NCBI GenBank assembly: GCA_000697335.1
Contig: JNEM01012718.1
Span: 1 to 64,000 of the forward strand
From: Conidiobolus incongruus B7586
Lineage: Eukaryota
Direction of reading: 5' to 3'
Length of the DNA stretch: 64,000 nucleotides
Below the pieces are notes generated by a model that was not told the origin of the DNA, ran no database searches, and saw nothing but the letters and a program-made list of their open reading frames with translations. The position numbers and the translations under genes are program-made. Shown here piece after piece: positions 7,949-16,476 of the stretch; the first letter of the stretch is position 1, and every line of letters starts with the position of its first letter.

Positions 7949-8732
7949 ATGTTCTTCTTAGTAAGATTATTATGTTAATTCATTATTAAATATCAAATAC
8001 TTATATTATATCAAAGAAAGATATGACTCATACCATTCAGTTACCTCCATCTTATTTTGGACCTGGAATAAGAAAGTTTGTAGAACAAAAATTACATAAG
8101 GACGTTGAAGGAACTTGTTCTGATCAATATGGTTATATTATATCTGTGGTCTCGATTTCTAAAGTGAGTCAGGGCAAATTAATTCCAGGAGCTGGTCAAG
8201 CTGAGTACACTGTTAACTACTCTGCAGTCGTTTTAAAACCTTTTAAAGGCGAAGTCTTAGATGCTATTGTTATTTCAATCACTAAGGTATTATACAATTA
8301 AATTAATTAACAAGATTTTTATTAATGTTTTTTAACTAGACTGGCTTCTTTGCTGAAATGGGTCCTCTAAAAATTTTCGTATCTTTATCTGTAATATTTT
8401 TTTTCCTAGAATTATTGAAATGAATTAATATTAAATCTTTTTTAGAATATTCCCGAAGAATTAGAATATAATGCTGAATCTTCTTCATTCCAATCTGAAG
8501 ATCAGGTAAACACAAATAAAATTTATTGTACTAGTATTTTATACTAATGTATTCATAATAGGTCATTGAAAACGGATCTCCAGTTCGTCTTAAAATCTTA
8601 GGTATTAGAACAGATGCTACAGAATTGGTAAATTAATCACATTACTATATCTGATCATGGTATTAAATCAATCTTTTTTAGTATATTATTGGAACTATCA
8701 AAGAAGATTATTTGGGTGCTATTTCATTCTAA
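7949..8732 (+). CDS. RPB7: RNA polymerase II subunit Rpb7, multi-exon
   Basis: MFFL|KDMTHTIQLPPSYFGP...VEGTCSDQYGYII...KPFKGEVLDAIV...GFFAEMGPLKIFVS...IGTIKEDYLG. Confidence 0.97.
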
Positions 8733-9435
8733 TCTTATAAAGGTTTTGTACAAATGAATTTATATTTATGCTTTAAAATTCATTTCTCGACCTGATTAAA
8801 TTTCTTTTTTAAATATTGTGATTTTCAATAAATTAATTGTAATTTTATTTAACCTTATTATGGATCAAGATTAATTTATACTAGCGATCGCTGGAATTAT
8901 ATATATTTTCAATATTACTCTTACTTAAGCAAATATGAAATCTAAAGTCGATAATAGTATATTTAATATAAAAAACACTCAAATCTAAGCTCTATTATAA
9001 TGAATCACGCTTCAATCATTTTTTCAATTACTTGTCTCTTAACATTTTTTATATTCAAAAATCTTTTCTTATTATATAAATTCAATAGCATTTGATGTAA
9101 TCTTTTAAACATCTATTTAGTATTAACTTATTTATATACACTTAAATTTGATTATCATAGTAAAAATTTGAAAATATTCAAAATTGGCTCTACATTGCAC
9201 GCTAATATTAAAAACCACTTTACATAATTCTACACAAATATATAATTAATAGAGTTACTCAATTATTTACAATATTTGATATAAAAAAGTAACACTATTC
9301 ACCATTCTAAATATTTAAAATAGTCCCATAATCAATTTATTATAATTATTTTAATATATTTAATTGTCAACCTGTCCCCATATTTTTTTATAAAAATTAT
9401 ATAAATCATTTAATTAATTTGTGAAGTTTAACTTA

Positions 9436-10415
9436 ATGGATATTCAATACCAACCTAGTTTAGGGGAATTAAAAGATATTATTTTTAATGAATTAAAAAA
9501 GTAAGGTTATTCATTAAAATAATTACAAATTTATAAACTATTATTTAGCATTTTGGACAATGAGAGATTGCTGATTGGTATTTACGGTAACTATGCATGT
9601 TCACACTTCAATATCTTTGTTGATCATTTCGATTAGGTATTCCTGGGAGTGGTAAGACTACCTTAAGTTTAAAGTTAAAGGATTATTTAAATCAAACTGG
9701 CGAAATCTGCCAATTAATTCCAATGGATGGTTATCATCTCTATAAATACGAATTAAGTCAATTTGAAGTAATAATAATTAGTTCAGTTATTACATGATAC
9801 ATTAATTATTATATTTTAATAGAATTATAAAGAAATGTTTGCAAGAAGGGGTGCACATTTTACTTTTAATCCATCGAGTAAATTTTAATATTAAGACTTT
9901 TTAGATTTTATAATTAATGATTGCTAGAATTGTTGGAGTTAATCAAAAAGTTAAAAATGCCGATTGATAATAATGTTAACTACTATGCCCCTTCATTCGA
10001 TCATTCTGTTGGTGATCCTATTGAAAATGATATCGAAATTTTACCAAGGTAAACTAAACAAATCATAATACTTCATATCATATATTGGTTATATTATATA
10101 GTCATAAAATAATTATTATCGAGGGGTTATATTTGGGATTGAATCTTGGTGAATGGATTGAAATTAATTCTCACTTGAATTTAAAATGGTTTTTGAACTG
10201 TGATATGAATATATGTAAATCAAGGCTTATAAAGAGACATTTATTAAGTGGAATAGGTAATTAGATATGCTTGAAATAGTATGTGACAATACTCATTTTT
10301 GTATATTATAGAAGCTGATGAAAAATCTGCTGAAAAGAGAGCAGTTGAAAACGATTTAGAAAATGGAAAATTTATTATTCAAAACTCCAAAAATTCGGAT
10401 TTGATTATAAAATAA
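9436..10415 (+). CDS. YFH7: P-loop kinase of the YFH7 / phosphoribulokinase-uridine kinase family, multi-exon
   Basis: Spliced translation contains GIPGSGKTT (Walker A), PMDGYHL, ARRGAHFTF, APSFDHSVGDP, IIIEGLYL, RLIKRH and ENDLENG. Confidence 0.85.
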
Positions 10416-10506: not shown

Positions 10507-11143
10507 CAATTGTTGAAATCTAAAGCTCTATAAGTTAGTTTGTCAATAAATATTTTTATTCAATTTACATTTTTTAATGCTTTTGATTTCACTTCCACTT
10601 TAACTTTTTTGCATATTTCTCATTATAATACAATATATCGTTAACAAATTTCATTTATTATCCTTTTTTTATCTATTTACAGTTTGTCAATCACCAAATG
10701 TCTTCATACTTAAAAAGCTCAATCTTCCTTAATTATTATATAATAATTTTCTATAAAATTAATTCTGATACATCTGATTTATTGAATTCAAAATTTATAA
10801 AATTTAATTTATTAATACATTTTATAACGTATAGGTTGCTTAAACAATTTTATCTAGATCATAATGACAAAATGAATTTTTGGTTTTATGAGTTTAAAAT
10901 TTTCATTTTTATTAATTAATTTCAATCAATTTTAATTTGTGAACCATACACATTTGAGAAAAATGTCAAATTTTAAAATTTAGTTAATATATAAATAATA
11001 AAACGAATTTGAATAATTATGAATAATATTTAAAACTGTAAGGAGTAATAACAGGATAAACTATTAAAGAAATAATGAAAATTTTGAAGAATAAAATGTT
11101 CAGATATAAAACAATAATTAAAAGAAAATATTTTTATAAGCAA

Positions 11144-11214
11144 TGCCGTTGCGCGGAATCGAACCGCGGTCTGAGCGGCCACAACGCTTCGTACTACCAC
11201 TATACTACAACGGC
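11144..11214 (-). tRNA. tRNA-His(GTG)
   Basis: GCCGTTGTAGTATAGTGGTAGTACGAAGCGTTGTGGCCGCTCAGACCGCGGTTCGATTCCGCGCAACGGCA. Perfect acceptor stem GCCGTTG/CAACGGC, T loop GGTTCGATTCC and anticodon GTG. Confidence 0.96.
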
Positions 11215-11224
11215 TCATTATCAG

Positions 11225-11780
11225 TGTCACGGTTATTAGCTCTTGGAGCGTCATTGAGGACACTGACACAGCCATTCTGTAGGCCAGATTGTGAAACATG
11301 ATACCTACCAGCTGGGGTAAACTACCAATGATCAGATCTCTGGCTATTCGGCCTTGATCACTTGTAAATGGGGCTTTGTACAGAGCGACTAGACCAGCAG
11401 CAACAGTGGCGGCGTTAGGATCCGACATGCTAAAAGATGGAATCAAGGAATATCAATAGGAACGGGTTTAGAAGGATTAGTGTAAAATGACTCAAGTGGA
11501 ACTATGAGCAGTTACTTGAGTATACCAAAAGGGTTGGCTTTGGATGTAGGAAAAAGGTTTATTAATGTAAGAAAGTAAGGTAAGAGAGAGAGATCAAGAA
11601 GGGAGCCGAGCCCTTCTTATACTTAAGTGAAATATATAGGCATAAGTATGCACGGATGAGTAACAGTGAGGTCACTCAGACGTGGACTGGTAAAATGTTG
11701 ATAAGGCCTAATTTGGTTAATCAGGTACTTAATAGTAAATTGGAGTGAAGAAAGGTATCAATTAGGTAGCAATCGTCACA
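11225..11780 (-). mobile_element. Solo LTR, family A, copy 1 (556 bp)
   Basis: Runs TGTCACGG...CGTCACA, flanked by ATCAG at 11220-11224 and 11781-11785. The minus strand has TATAAGAA, a CT-rich tract and AATAAA. Confidence 0.88.
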
Positions 11781-11785
11781 ATCAG

Positions 11786-12341
11786 TGTCACGGTTATTAG
11801 CTCTTGGAGCGTCATTGAGGACACTGACACAGCCATTCTGTAGGCCAGATTGTGAAACATGATACCTACCAGCTGGGGTAAACTACCAATGATCAGATCT
11901 CTGGCTATTCGGCCTTGATCACTTGTAAATGGGGCTTTGTACAGAGCGACTAGACCAGCAGCAACAGTGGCGGCGTTAGGATCCGACATGCTAAAAGATG
12001 GAATCAAGGAATATCAATAGGAACGGGTTTAGAAGGATTAGTGTAAAATGACTCAAGTGGAACTATGAGCAGTTACTTGAGTATACCAAAAGGGTTGGCT
12101 TTGGATGTAGGAAAAAGGTTTATTAATGTAAGAAAGTAAGGTAAGAGAGAGAGATCAAGAAGGGAGCCGAGCCCTTCTTATACTTAAGTGAAATATATAG
12201 GCATAAGTATGCACGGATGAGTAACAGTGAGGTCACTCAGACGTGGACTGGTAAAATGTTGATAAGGCCTAATTTGGTTAATCAGGTACTTAATAGTGAA
12301 TTGGAGTGAAGAAAGGTATCAATTAGGTAGCAATCGTCACA
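11786..12341 (-). mobile_element. Solo LTR, family A, copy 2 (556 bp)
   Basis: Essentially identical to copy 1; the only difference seen is A11737 versus G12298. Flanked by ATCAG at 11781-11785 and 12342-12346. Confidence 0.88.
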
Positions 12342-12346
12342 ATCAG

Positions 12347-12647
12347 TGTGACGGATCTGATCCTGTTTCTCCTACCATCTAGCCAATAGAATCATATCAT
12401 GTGTATATGGCTCAATCTCAATACTGGTATTACCATATAAATACCATCTTTAGTACAATAACCTAGCCTTGGCTTGTTATTGTGTGCAATATCTACAATA
12501 AACCTTACTTATTTGCCTTAATATATTTCTGTTTATTGGTGGTTCATCCACCAGTATACAGCACAGTTCTAGTTGTGCGGGTTATGGATTGGTGACAACT
12601 CCCTGTAGATCATGATTTCAGTGGTAATGCCACTGAGAACAGTGACA
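12347..12647 (+). mobile_element. Solo LTR, family B, copy 1 (301 bp)
   Basis: Runs TGTGACGG...CAGTGACA with CCAAT, TATAAATA (12436) and AATAAA (12497). Flanked by ATCAG on both sides. Confidence 0.85.
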
Positions 12648-12652
12648 ATCAG

Positions 12653-13217
12653 TGTAGCGATTATTAGCTGTTTGGGTGTCATCGAGGATACTGACACAGC
12701 CATGGTGTAGGCCAGATTGTGAAGCATTGTGCCTACAAACTGAGGTAGGTTACTGATAATCAGTTCTCTGGCTATTCAACCATGATTACTGTTAAATGAA
12801 TCATTAACAAGGGTGACTAGATCAGCAGCAGTGGCAGTATGAGGATTTGGCATGCTAAGAAAACAAATTACGGAATATCAATAGGAATGGATGTAGACTG
12901 GTAATGGAATATGTCTCAAGTAAAGCTATAGGTGGCTGATTGAGGATGCTCGGAAGCGTACTAGGAATACGAACTTGAGGTTTATTTGTAAAGTAGAATA
13001 GAGAATGTATCTGTAAATTAAGTGGGAAGTGTTGGTATAAGTAGACCATTACAGACTAATAGCATGATTGTAAGAGCATCTGCATATTGCATTATCAAAT
13101 GTTTAGAGCCTTGTTTATAATTGGTTAGGATTATTTATATGGCTTAATTGGTATGATACGGGATTTAGTGGTGGGTTTTGAGTGAAAGAAGGTATCAATT
13201 AGATAACAATTGTCAGA
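12653..13217 (-). mobile_element. Solo LTR, family A, diverged copy 3 (565 bp)
   Basis: Clearly homologous to copies 1 and 2 (for example CTGACACAGCCAT, GTAGGCCAGATTGTGAA, AAGGTATCAATTAG). Termini are mutated (TGTAGCG...TGTCAGA). Flanked by ATCAG. Confidence 0.82.
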
Positions 13218-13222
13218 ATCAG

Positions 13223-13531
13223 TGTCACAGCTCTCAGCGGCATCACCACTGAGATCATGATCTACTCGGAGTTGTCACCGATCCATAACCAGCACAACTA
13301 GAACTGCACTGTATATTAGTAAGTAGACTACTAATGAACAGAAATATGTTAAGAACAAGTATAAGGTTTATTGTAGATATTGCACACAATAACAAGCCAA
13401 AACTTAGTCATTGTATCAAATATGGTAATTGCACAATAATTCAAGTATTGAGATAGAGTCATATGCATATGATATGATTCCATTGGTAGAATGCTATGAG
13501 ACTTAGGAAAAATGGGGCCAGATCTGTCACA
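13223..13531 (-). mobile_element. Solo LTR, family B, copy 2, inverted relative to copy 1 (309 bp)
   Basis: Reverse-complement homolog of 12347-12647 (TGTCACAGCTCTCAGCGGCATCACCACTGAGATCATGATCTAC...). Flanked by ATCAG at 13218-13222 and 13532-13536. Confidence 0.85.
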
Positions 13532-14029
13532 ATCAGTATCCCTTTGATATTATATAAGAATATTACTACAGCTCAAGATATATTTTAAATTTGTTTCTTT
13601 GTCAAATATAATGCGCTACTTGATTTTATTTATCATATCTTTTTACCTTATTCTACTTTTATAATTTTTTTCATATTCTTTTTTTTTATAAATTATTTTT
13701 CCTTGTTCATTTTTCAATATTTTTATTTCACTAAAATATTTTACAAAAAAATGGAAGTACAAAGCAATACACCTTTATATTTTACAGCATCAAAATGTAT
13801 ATTAAGTTATCATTTTTACTGATATCAGCTTAGTTGATTACACATCAAAATGGCATCATTCTCGCTACAGTCTATATTAGGAAAATTATGGATCACATTG
13901 AACTGAAAAAGAATTAATGATATATGCAAATAAACCCATATTCATCTAATTTATTTCAAAAAATATATAAATCTCCATTTGTCTGAGTTTAAGTTAATTT
14001 ATTATTGATAAATAATTAAATAATATAAA

Positions 14030-16476
14030 ATGTCTAAAAAATATTGGAATAATAATCAAGTTAAACAATTTTTAGAACAACAGTATAAATTAATCACGAA
14101 TGAAAGAGAAACTGATATTGTTGGAATTCAAAAGGGAATTGAATCGTATAGCGTGAGTGAATTGGGTAGATTGGGTTGGGCCATTTTAAATTTAAGAATT
14201 TCTGCAACAAAAACTGGTCTTGGTGGTAAAACGTAATATCCTTGTTATTTTTGGGTGAATTTAACGTCATATTAAAATTTAATTAGAGTTATAGATTTGG
14301 AGCCTGAAGATCAGGAGGATGATTTATTACCTTATCATTTGGTTAAAACTGGCGACGTCGTCGCATTAGAACCTCATGGGAGTAGCAAACCTGTCAAAGG
14401 AGGAAATGACCAAACTCAAGGAACTGTAATTAAAGTATTATCAAATAGAATTGTACTATCTCTTCAGGATGAATTGGAAGATTCAGAAGGGATTTGGAGA
14501 GTGTGAGTTAAATATTATATTTATCAAGGTCAAATTACTAATTCAATTATGATGATTACTATTATAGTATTAAATTGGCAAATGAGATCACTTTTTCAAG
14601 GTATTCAATTTTAAAACGAGATGAATACCCGATTAGCTAATAATATTATATTATTGTGCTTTAGAATGACTAAAGTAATTAATCATCTGAGCTCAAAATT
14701 AGAAAAAAATACTCTGAGTTCAGTTGAAAGAGTATTACTTAACATGCAAAGCCCTAGATTTAATTCAACAGTGAATGATGATAATTTGGAGTTGTTTGAC
14801 TCTAGTTTAAATTCTTCACAAAGAGAGGCAATCAAACTAGCTTTAAATGCTGAACATGTTGCTTTAATCCATGGACCACCAGGGGTAATTTATTTCAATT
14901 TAATTCTAGACCTATATTCATTTAATGTGATTTAGACGGGAAAAACCCATACATTGATTGAGTTGATTTTACAATTGATCAAAAGAGAGCTCAGAATTCT
15001 GGTGTGCGGCCCCTCCAACTTGTCAGTTGACAATTTAGTCGAAAGATTAGCAAAACACCAAGTGAATCAAATCAGATTAGGTCATCCAGCCAGAATTTTG
15101 CCCTCTGTAATAGATCACTCGCTAGATATCAAATCAAAATATTCTGATGAAGGTCTTATAGTTAAAGATATCAGAAATGAAATGGACGAATTGTTAAGTA
15201 AAGCAAGTGTAACAAAGGCTCGTGCGGAACGAAGAAAGATTTATACAGAGTTAAAAGAGTTGAAGAAGGATTTCAAAGCAAGAGAACAAAATGTTTTAAA
15301 TAATTTGCTTAAGAATGCCCAAGTGGTACTAAGCACATTAAACGGGTAATTTTACTGACTCAATGACATGACTTAAATATTAATTTAGATATCACTCTTT
15401 ATAGATCTGCATCTAAAAATCTTTATAATCAGCATTTTGATGTTTTAATTATTGATGAAGCGACACAAGCTTTAGAAGGTAATTAAAATTTTTATATATA
15501 GTTAAAATATACCATTAATAATGTTGTTTTTAGCGGTAAATATATTTTAATTTGACTATAAGAATATAGATAATCTAATATTATCTAGGAATGTTGGATT
15601 GCTATCACACAATGTCCCAAAGTAATATTTGCTGGTGATCACCATCAATTACCACCAACTGTCAAAAGTTCTAATCCAAAATTGGAATTGACTTTATTTA
15701 AGAGATTGCTATCATTCCATGGTAATTCAATAAGAGCAATGTTAAATGAGCAATACAGAATGCATCAAGATATTATGGAATTTTCTTCTCATTATTTATA
15801 TGAGGATAAACTTGTAGCTCATTCTAGTGTAAAAGCACATCTCCTAAAAGATTTAAAAGAAGTTGATGCTGACAGTGATGACGTGGTCAATACTCCACTT
15901 TTATTTGTTGATACCGCTGGATCAGATCTTTTAGAATCATCTACGACTGATATTAACTCTGATAATTCGTTTTCATTAAATAAATTAACTGATGATAGTA
16001 AGCTGAATATGGGAGAAGTTCAGCTGGCTGTATCTCATCTCAAATTACTTATCAGTACAGGGGTAAAGCCTAGTCAAATCGCAGTCATATCTCCATATAA
16101 CGGCCAAGTAACTCAGCTCATATCAGAGATTAAACCTATGTATCCTGAAGTTGAAATAGGGACTGTTGATGGATTCCAAGGAAGAGAAAAAGAGGCAGTG
16201 ATCCTAAGCTTAGTCAGAAGCAATTTTGATCATCAGGTAGGATTTTTGATGGACTATCGAAGATTAAATGTTGCAATCACTCGTGCTAAACGTCATCTTT
16301 GTGTAATTGGTGACTCTGATACAGTGATGTCACCACAGCCTTCTTCTCCAACTACTAAAGATCCAAGGGAGGATTCAGATTCTGATAAAATTGATGGCGC
16401 ACAATTTTTAATTAATTTAGGTGAATATTTGAGTGATCGAGGGGAAGTATGGACACCTGAAATGTACACTGAATAA
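14030..16476 (+). CDS. HCS1: SF1 Upf1-like helicase, IGHMBP2/Hcs1 family, multi-exon
   Basis: Motifs TGLGGKT, LNSSQREAI, IHGPPGTGKT, GPSNLSVDNL, RLGHPAR, DEATQALEAECW, GDHHQLPPT, QYRMH, ISPYNGQV, TVDGFQGREKE and RRLNVAITRAKRH. Confidence 0.92.

What the first reader, a model, noticed from the sequence alone, without database searches (positions are those of the whole stretch)
11215..13536. Polarised stack of five solo LTRs at one nucleotide position upstream of tRNA-His: a CRISPR-like insertion log
Seen: the layout is tRNA-TCATT-ATCAG-[A1 556]-ATCAG-[A2 556]-ATCAG-[B1 301]-ATCAG-[A3 565]-ATCAG-[B2 309, inverted]-ATCAG. Six identical 5-bp repeats separate TG...CA-type units from two families in both orientations, with no nesting and no internal retroelement sequence. 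The tRNA-proximal pair differ at about 1 nt, while distal copies have decayed termini or TATA. Known: LTR integrases make 5-bp duplications, yeast Ty3 integrates at Pol III start sites, and LTR-LTR recombination leaves solo LTRs. Inference: repeated cycles of base-precise integration at -6 to -10 of the tRNA, each followed by collapse to a solo LTR, regenerate the target and push older units outward. The tRNA then acts like a CRISPR leader and the array records invasion order. It points to Pol III-targeted retrotransposons with very precise integrases in this lineage.
Basis: partly seen in the sequence, partly recalled or inferred. Interest (0 to 1): 0.93.

Follow-up and report, generated by a model that had tools for sequence, protein, structure and literature searches.

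The report
Stacked solo LTRs at fungal tRNA
Five leftover ends of jumping genes sit side by side just upstream of a tRNA gene in a Conidiobolus-type fungus, each separated by the same five bases, likely because several element families keep landing exactly ten bases before tRNA genes and push older copies outward, which would leave a partial record of invasion order.

Summary
The host is Conidiobolus-like. Contigs of one sample show both LTR types as dispersed high-copy families with the same ends. At other loci LTRs abut through other 5-nt spacers (3 distinct joints), so ATCAG is a target duplication. Majority flank lines carry the tRNA A-box in the register of a 10-nt gap (4 of 8 family-A rows score 8-9 of 9, null P about 0.0005; 4 of 4 rows of a B variant). 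This fits Ty3-like targeting of Pol III genes at near single-base precision, with serial re-use of the site. Corrections: A1 and A2 share a rare variant, so they are likely one insertion plus a local duplication or conversion. A3 is its own subfamily. The age gradient is supported for A only. Nothing supports a CRISPR-like function. No full-length element was found, so the superfamily is open. Targeting and double insertion are known; I found no paper on such stacks or on targeting in Zoopagomycota. The scan had noted nested LTR and LINE stacks at tRNA genes elsewhere, not this form.

The parts
11144..11214 (-). tRNA-His(GTG) gene, the likely targeting anchor (internal A and B boxes)
   Evidence: ARAGORN; Rfam RF00005 63.4 bits
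11215..11219 (-). 5-nt stretch between target duplication and mature tRNA 5' end; candidate pre-tRNA leader (start at -5 inferred from a T-A step)
   Evidence: sequence; start site inferred, not measured
11220..11224 (.). Target-site 5-mer ATCAG, copy 1 (-10 to -6 of the tRNA)
11225..11780 (-). A1: solo LTR, family A, young; TATA at LTR position 143, AATAAACC at 218; 68-codon frame running off its 3' end
   Evidence: family depth and sharp ends
11781..11785 (.). ATCAG copy 2
   Evidence: depth remainder about 1 copy in 3 of 4 runs
11786..12341 (-). A2: solo LTR, 555/556 identical to A1; shares a rare base with A1 (12067/11506)
11786..11989 (-). ATG-started open frame inside LTR A that leaves the LTR without a stop; likely the start of gag (same in A1 from 11428; in A3 from 12853 with one CGA-to-TGA stop)
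   Evidence: differences by codon position 15/10/24, one 3-nt indel, pS 0.44, pN 0.18; no homolog found
12342..12346 (.). ATCAG copy 3
12347..12647 (+). B1: solo LTR, family B, opposite orientation to the tRNA; TATA at 90, AATAAACC at 151; folded 3' part (z -4.4 against mononucleotide shuffles)
12648..12652 (.). ATCAG copy 4
12653..13217 (-). A3: decayed solo LTR of an A-related subfamily (75% to A1 in the 3' half, 64% in the 5' half); both termini altered
   Evidence: deep related family at 13113/13116
13218..13222 (.). ATCAG copy 5
   Evidence: bridged by an exact contig in 4 of 4 runs
13223..13531 (-). B2: solo LTR, family B, 83% to B1, intact termini, no TATA match
13532..13536 (.). ATCAG copy 6, followed by unique AT-rich flank (GC 18%)
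   Evidence: bridged by an exact contig in 3 of 4 runs

Best explanation
The array is five LTR-type units separated by one repeated 5-base target, likely built by LTR retrotransposons whose integrase is tethered to the Pol III start complex and cuts the same five bases, 6 to 10 nt upstream of the tRNA, each time. Steps: (1) the tRNA's internal promoter positions TFIIIC/TFIIIB whatever lies upstream (established for Ty3; inferred here). (2) Integration duplicates the 5-mer and leaves one copy at -10 to -6, so the target is regenerated (geometry shown; fixed 10-nt offset supported at other loci). (3) LTR-LTR recombination reduces each element to a solo LTR (inferred). (4) The next element enters between tRNA and stack, so order runs young to old outward (supported for family A, untested for B). 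(5) Local duplication or gene conversion likely edited the newest pair, so the five units stand for four or five insertions from at least two families and three subfamilies.
For: Exact six-fold 5-mer geometry (chance 2e-11). Sense-strand AATAAACC in 5 of 5 units, TATA in 4 of 5, TG...CA ends in 4 of 5. 675-764 contigs laid per run, across all identity bands; summed depth 69-100 times (A) and 13-44 times (B) that of a unique contig, and loose ends pile up at the unit boundaries (the tool warns that summed depth is no copy number). Three distinct LTR-to-LTR joints from other loci, each with exactly 5 nt between (TAATT, CTACC, and AT+AAT in a 1904-nt contig); 6 of the 12 rows shown in table 5c, 19 hidden. 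Flank majority lines scored by hand for the A-box TRGYNNARY(N)GG in the register set beforehand by a 10-nt gap: family-A ends 9, 9, 8, 8, 7, 6, 4, 4 of 9 (8 rows; null mean 3.0-3.15, P(>=8) <= 0.00055). B-variant ends show G at +1 and TRGY at 8-11 in 4 of 4 rows (null <= 0.0005 per row). The mean A score of 6.9 fits 40-50% tRNA-facing flanks in simulation, near the ceiling of one half for two-ended units. A3 is older than A1/A2 by altered termini, GC-to-AT excess 76 vs 50 (P=0.026), CpG loss 9 of 12 vs 2 of 7 (P=0.07) and a stop in the conserved frame. Precedent: Ty3 1-4 nt from the start site, TFIIIB-dependent, both orientations (PMC5911963); Tj1 5-11 bp upstream of the mature 5' end (PMC4600332).
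Against: No full-length element, PBS, PPT, RT or integrase was found. The B1-type end rows score only 5, 4, 5, 6 of 9, and 2 of 8 family-A rows score 4. The four runs are one sample, rows show majority lines of 5-13 contigs rather than single loci, and only 24 of 650 loose-end rows were visible. At other loci I saw spacers but not both copies of a duplication. B1/B2 show no age direction (P=0.77). A1/A2 share a rare base. Two joints in table 5 (12341-13374, 12282-13219) look like nested or imprecise insertions elsewhere. No empty or shorter allele was seen.
Confidence: 0.8

Rival explanations
1. A1/A2 is one insertion plus a local event (slippage across the near-identical 13-nt ATCAG-plus-LTR-end junctions, unequal exchange, or conversion), so the stack logs four invasions and is editable. 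This refines rather than replaces the best explanation.
For: At 11506 and 12067 both copies carry G while the listed other letter holds all depth in 7 of 8 run-by-site cells; the remainder in X2 is 222, about 2.4-3.2 single-copy units, against 98-146 units for the majority letter. Junctions 1 and 3 match at 12 of 13 nt.
Against: A-to-A joints with other spacers appear in 2 contigs from other loci (position 11784), so independent double insertion of young A copies is plausible; conversion after two real insertions gives the same shared base. The remainder was visible in 1 of 4 runs only.
Confidence: 0.55
2. Insertions are guided by the previous LTR end or by the 5-mer junction itself, so units can enter at any junction and order is not chronological.
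For: All six junctions are equal in sequence, so sequence alone cannot give polarity; B1/B2 and A3/B2 cannot be ordered.
Against: The 10-nt offset to tRNA genes recurs at loci with unrelated flanks; the least decayed units are tRNA-proximal.
Confidence: 0.1
3. The A1/A2 pair, or more of the array, is an assembly artefact.
For: Near-identical 561-nt repeat; no listed contig spans the whole stretch; no long read; the single A1/A2 difference has only 0.26-0.39 of single-copy depth in 3 runs and none in the fourth.
Against: Exact bridging contigs for two junctions; about one copy of depth at the A1|A2 spacer in 3 of 4 runs; 2.4-3.2 copies of the shared rare base in X2.
Confidence: 0.07
4. The units are non-autonomous DNA transposons (MITE- or Ginger-like) with 5-bp duplications, not LTRs.
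For: No retroelement protein linked; TGT...ACA ends also occur in some DNA transposons (recalled).
Against: Terminal inverted repeats are only about 6-10 nt and imperfect; oriented TATA and AATAAA; a selected reading frame that runs off the 3' end of A implies that the unit is part of a longer element.
Confidence: 0.04
5. ATCAG belongs to the elements or is a fixed sequence target.
For: None beyond the local repetition.
Against: Other loci have other spacers and mixed flanks that start at the same unit ends (agreement 0.46-0.56).
Confidence: 0.01

Closest known systems
Ty3 (sigma LTRs) of Saccharomyces cerevisiae (PMC5911963, PMC6673722; passages)
   Same: LTR element at the 5' side of tRNA genes, 5-bp duplication, both orientations, solo LTRs left behind; 36 tDNAs with pre-existing Ty3 insertions are mentioned.
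   Different: Ty3 ends lie about 15-17 bp from the mature tRNA (PMC5014426) within a window of several bases; here 10 nt. Stacks of several families sharing one duplication were not described in the passages read. Host is a zoopagomycete.
Tj1 of Schizosaccharomyces japonicus (PMC4600332; passages)
   Same: [quoted passage not shown]
   Different: Tj1 spreads over several positions and inserts in one orientation only; here one offset and both orientations.
Tyl3, Tyl6, Ylt1, LTRyl7-9 (Yarrowia), Tca8/beta (Candida albicans), DGLT-A (Dictyostelium)
   Same: Several tRNA-adjacent LTR families in one compact genome, often known only as solo LTRs.
   Different: Wider offset ranges for Tca8 (6-30 bp) and DGLT-A (13-33 bp); no duplication-spaced stacks in the passages read.
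Double insertion at one target: P-element, jockey and R1 dimers in Drosophila (McGurk and Barbash, 10.1101/158386; passages)
   Same: The target duplication is kept between adjacent elements; dimers can expand by unequal exchange.
   Different: DNA transposons and non-LTR elements, mostly one family per tandem; no anchor gene that sets polarity, except rDNA for R1.
Tandem LTR retrotransposons of plants (PMC11899658; passages)
   Same: Several LTRs at one locus, solo-LTR alleles.
   Different: They share LTRs and keep internal regions, with no duplication between units; the opposite signature.

Membership tests
Solo LTR of an LTR retrotransposon | TG...CA ends with short inverted repeats | tested here: met
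   4 of 5 units; A3 altered at both ends
Solo LTR of an LTR retrotransposon | Flanked by a 4-6 bp target duplication that differs between loci | tested here: met
   ATCAG on both sides of all units; other 5-nt spacers at 3 other joints
Solo LTR of an LTR retrotransposon | Dispersed multi-copy family with sharp ends | tested here: met
   depth, identity bands and loose ends at unit boundaries
Solo LTR of an LTR retrotransposon | Promoter and polyadenylation signals in one orientation | tested here: met
   AATAAACC 5 of 5, TATA match 4 of 5; motif matches only
Solo LTR of an LTR retrotransposon | Same unit found at both ends of a full element with PBS, PPT and gag-pol | tested here: inconclusive
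   no genome held; searches blank; only a selected frame leaving LTR A
Pol III start-site-targeting Ty3/gypsy elements (Ty3, Tj1, Tyl3/Tyl6, Tca8, DGLT-A) | Insertion within about 5-30 bp upstream of tRNA genes at many loci | tested here: met
   10 nt here; A-box in the same register in flank majority lines
Pol III start-site-targeting Ty3/gypsy elements (Ty3, Tj1, Tyl3/Tyl6, Tca8, DGLT-A) | Domain order RT-RH-IN and placement in Metaviridae | not testable with these tools
   no internal sequence recovered
Pol III start-site-targeting Ty3/gypsy elements (Ty3, Tj1, Tyl3/Tyl6, Tca8, DGLT-A) | Integrase tethered by TFIIIB/TFIIIC | not testable with these tools
   needs the integrase and an assay
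Ty1-type copia targeting of Pol III genes | Insertions spread over about 1 kb upstream, often nested | tested here: not met
   one offset, no nesting at this locus (window size from PMC5911963)
Ty1-type copia targeting of Pol III genes | gag starts inside the LTR (recalled for Ty1, from no call) | tested here: inconclusive
   family A has such a frame, identity as gag unproven
Recombination-made tandem LTR retrotransposons | Shared LTR, no duplication between units | tested here: not met
   5-mer between all units
CRISPR array | Constant repeats with polarised acquisition at a leader | tested here: inconclusive
   geometry analogous; polarity supported for family A only
CRISPR array | Host-encoded acquisition and guide-RNA-based defence | not tested
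   no RNA data; the repeat here is an integrase by-product and differs by locus

The most novel reading that the evidence does not exclude
Across this fungus's many tRNA genes, at least two unrelated LTR families integrate at one base offset, tighter than Ty3 or Tj1, and build polarised duplication-spaced stacks that can be read as genome-wide chronologies of retrotransposon invasions; this would be the first Pol III start-site targeting described in Zoopagomycota. A bolder extension, that the host uses the stacks as a silencing memory, has no support here (about 5%).
Probability: 0.55. Interest if true: 0.7.

Novelty: new variant of a known kind. Interest (0 to 1): 0.58.

Why it matters
It extends start-site targeting of tRNA genes, known from ascomycete yeasts and social amoebae, to an early-diverging fungal phylum, which bears on whether the habit is old or arose repeatedly. 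Ordered stacks give a clock-free way to rank invasions and to test LTR dating, solo-LTR formation and conversion between neighbours. An integrase that re-uses one base position without harming its target would also interest those who seek safe-harbour integration. The parts of the mechanism are known; the new things are the lineage, the precision and the stacked architecture.

Tried and rejected
No whole genome is held for this window, so the census of tRNA upstream regions could not be run. Per-locus tRNA-to-LTR joints remain unseen. Exact-pattern scans of metagenome contigs for LTR B and LTR A: 0 matches each. A 16-mer scan of viral contigs gave 114 matches; blastn of A3 and B1 against the fetched loci gave at best 37 nt at 86%, treated as chance. 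Searches for the protein encoded in LTR A: Pfam 0 of 2; word-indexed search 1 hit, a low-complexity repeat protein; full HMMER search 3 hits, all repeat proteins matched on short stretches; rejected. A and B as one family: rejected. A1/A3 distance as an insertion age: rejected, subfamily difference. PMC336330 and PMC1204282 (original sigma/Ty3 papers) were not held and may describe adjacent sigma elements. Helenus-type TRIMs (PMC10886601, passages) were considered; Rfam and ARAGORN find no tRNA inside the units.

Full report
1. Observation. A tRNA-His(GTG) gene lies at 11144-11214 on the minus strand. Five bases upstream begins the first of six ATCAG copies (11220, 11781, 12342, 12648, 13218, 13532), which bound five units of 556, 556, 301, 565 and 309 nt. 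A1 and A2 differ by one transition; A1/A3 are 76% and B1/B2 83% identical. A and B share only their ends. Six equal 5-mers have a chance of 2e-11 from local 5-mer frequencies. The units are 37-42% GC in flanks of 17-18% GC. No other copy lies in the window, which has one tRNA gene.

2. Host. The window's hexokinase is 88% identical to that of Conidiobolus coronatus and 64% to Neoconidiobolus thromboides, so the host is a Conidiobolus-type zoopagomycete. No whole genome is held.

3. Anatomy. Read in LTR sense, A1, A2, A3 and B2 point the same way as the tRNA and B1 the other way. Four units run TGTGAC...GTGACA; A3 has both ends altered. All five carry AATAAACC on the sense strand only, and four a TATA match upstream of it. 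Family A holds an ATG frame of 68 codons that leaves the 3' end without a stop. Between A2 and A3 this frame differs at 15, 10 and 24 first, second and third positions (P=0.017 for third-position excess), has one 3-nt indel, and pS 0.44 against pN 0.18 (transition bias inflates pS). It is likely the start of gag, which argues that A is the end of a longer element. No homolog was found.

4. Other loci. Four DNA runs of one sample were laid as contigs on 10900-13900 (X1-X4 of the 7 runs listed). 675-764 contigs per run fit, spread over all identity bands. Summed depth is 69-100 times (A), 32-44 times (B1) and 13-17 times (B2) that of a unique contig; the tool warns that this is no copy number. 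Loose ends gather at the unit boundaries with mixed flanks (agreement 0.46-0.56), so the boundaries are right and ATCAG is not part of the elements. Three distinct end-to-end joints from other loci have exactly five letters between a B end and an A end: TAATT, CTACC, and AT+AAT in a 1904-nt contig (6 of 12 rows shown, 19 hidden). Two further contigs cross an A|A spacer with another letter at 11784. Two joints (12341-13374, 12282-13219, opposite strands) look nested, so stacking is not the only outcome.

5. Fixed offset. Table 7 showed 24 of 650 rows, 16 of them at unit ends. I fixed the row convention on the 11433/11995 rows against table 4 ('before' names the first, 'behind' the last matched base) and scored each line by hand for the nine informative A-box positions (motif recalled; boxes TRGCY and YGG also in PMC10886601), in the register that a 10-nt gap dictates. 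Family-A ends: 9 (X3, 11786), 9 (X1, 12342), 8 (X4, 11786), 8 (X2, 11225), 7 (X1, 11786), 6 (X2, 11786), 4 and 4 (X1, X3, 11225). Majority lines of random window flanks score 3.0-3.15 on average, with P(>=8) at most 0.00055 and P(>=7) at most 0.0067. B1-type ends (12648) score 5, 4, 5, 6: inconclusive. The four rows of a B end variant (12638) reach only tRNA position 11 and show G at +1 and TRGY at 8-11 in 4 of 4 (null at most 0.0005 per row). The A mean of 6.9 matches simulations with 40-50% tRNA-facing flanks, close to the one half expected if nearly all copies sit at tRNA genes. Limits: one sample, majority lines of 5-13 contigs, a biased subset of copies, and a model-based fraction.

6. 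Assembly. Exact contigs bridge A3|B2 in 4 of 4 runs and B2|flank in 3 of 4. At the A1|A2 spacer 1.1-1.3 single-copy units of depth remain after the listed variant in 3 of 4 runs; the letter of that remainder is not shown. The other three junctions were not among the rows shown. There is no long read, and the runs may be the assembly's own source.

7. Order and age. A3 looks older than A1/A2: altered ends, GC-to-AT changes 76 against 50 (P=0.026), 9 of 12 A1 CpGs turned to TG/CA against 2 of 7 the other way (P=0.07), and a CGA-to-TGA stop in the conserved frame. Its divergent 5' half has its own deep set of related contigs (13113, 13116), so most of the 24% is subfamily distance. B1 against B2 shows no direction (24 vs 21, P=0.77). 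Intact distal spacers limit post-insertion decay: at 10% divergence 15 bases survive with P=0.21, at 20% with P=0.035. A1 and A2 both have G at 11506/12067 where the family majority (98-146 units of depth) has A; the remainder is 2.4-3.2 units in X2 and absent in the other runs. Two independent draws from the family would rarely share it, so the pair is likely a local duplication or was converted. The log is therefore partial and editable.

8. Mechanism. Shown: geometry, dispersed families, locus-specific spacers. Supported: one offset across loci; A3 older than A1/A2. Inferred from Ty3: tethering by TFIIIB/TFIIIC, which load through the internal boxes and so survive replacement of upstream DNA (PMC5911963; PMC4600332). 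Inferred: collapse of each element to a solo LTR between insertions, and a start site at -5 next to the duplication. Confidence 0.8.

9. Known systems. Ty3 inserts 1-4 nt from the start site, Tj1 5-11 bp from the mature 5' end, Tca8 6-30 bp and DGLT-A 13-33 bp. Double insertion that keeps the duplication between elements is established for P, jockey and R1 (10.1101/158386). Plant tandem LTR elements share LTRs instead (PMC11899658). It works like Ty3; membership of Ty3/gypsy is untested, and a frame starting inside the LTR is recalled from Ty1, so copia is not excluded for A. Ten searches gave no paper on duplication-spaced solo-LTR stacks at tRNA genes or on tRNA targeting in Zoopagomycota. 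I saw passages only of PMC5911963, 10.1101/2022.12.06.519325, 10.1101/158386, PMC11899658, PMC12387763, PMC5014426 (plus section 40), PMC10886601, PMC6673722, PMC5006619, PMC4600332, PMC10515909 and PMC7175516; other papers as listings only. I opened no supplements; the LTR tables of PMC5014426 and PMC6673722 may hold adjacent LTRs with a shared duplication, and two early sigma papers were not held. Earlier scan notes report nested Ty LTRs (e1-575432, e1-573121) and a LINE stack (e1-7146771) at tRNA genes of other genomes, unchecked here; none matches this sequence.

10. Verdict. Real feature, new variant of a known kind. The CRISPR comparison fits the geometry only. Interest 0.58.

Noticed in passing
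window 11786-11989 (-), also 11225-11428 and 12653-12853: LTR family A carries a 68-codon ATG frame under purifying selection that runs off the LTR's 3' end; likely the start of gag, and a handle to find the full element. No homolog found.
   Followed up: partly
window 11732: The one base that separates A1 from A2 has at most 0.26-0.39 of single-copy depth in three runs and none in the fourth; may be a mixed culture, ongoing conversion or a contig filter effect.
   Followed up: partly
window 12510-12647 and 13223-13365: The 3' part of LTR B folds more stably than mononucleotide shuffles (z -4.4 and -3.2); family A does not (z -0.5, -0.8).
   Followed up: partly
window 40635-41219 (+): Intronless, GC-richer ATG frame of 194 codons with a cysteine-rich end inside AT-rich DNA; no Pfam family and no homolog of similar length. 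Orphan gene or foreign insert.
   Followed up: partly
window 14024-16476 (+) and 7990-10400 (+): The stack sits in a gap of about 3.6 kb between ordinary genes: a superfamily-1 helicase (AAA_11/AAA_12) to the right, a P-loop kinase-like gene (by eye) and Rpb7/Rpc25-family gene to the left.
   Followed up: no
window 11102-11202: Summed contig depth over the tRNA-His gene is tens of times the flank, in line with many tRNA copies; a related species has 1294 predicted tRNA genes (PMC12387763), a large target set.
   Followed up: no
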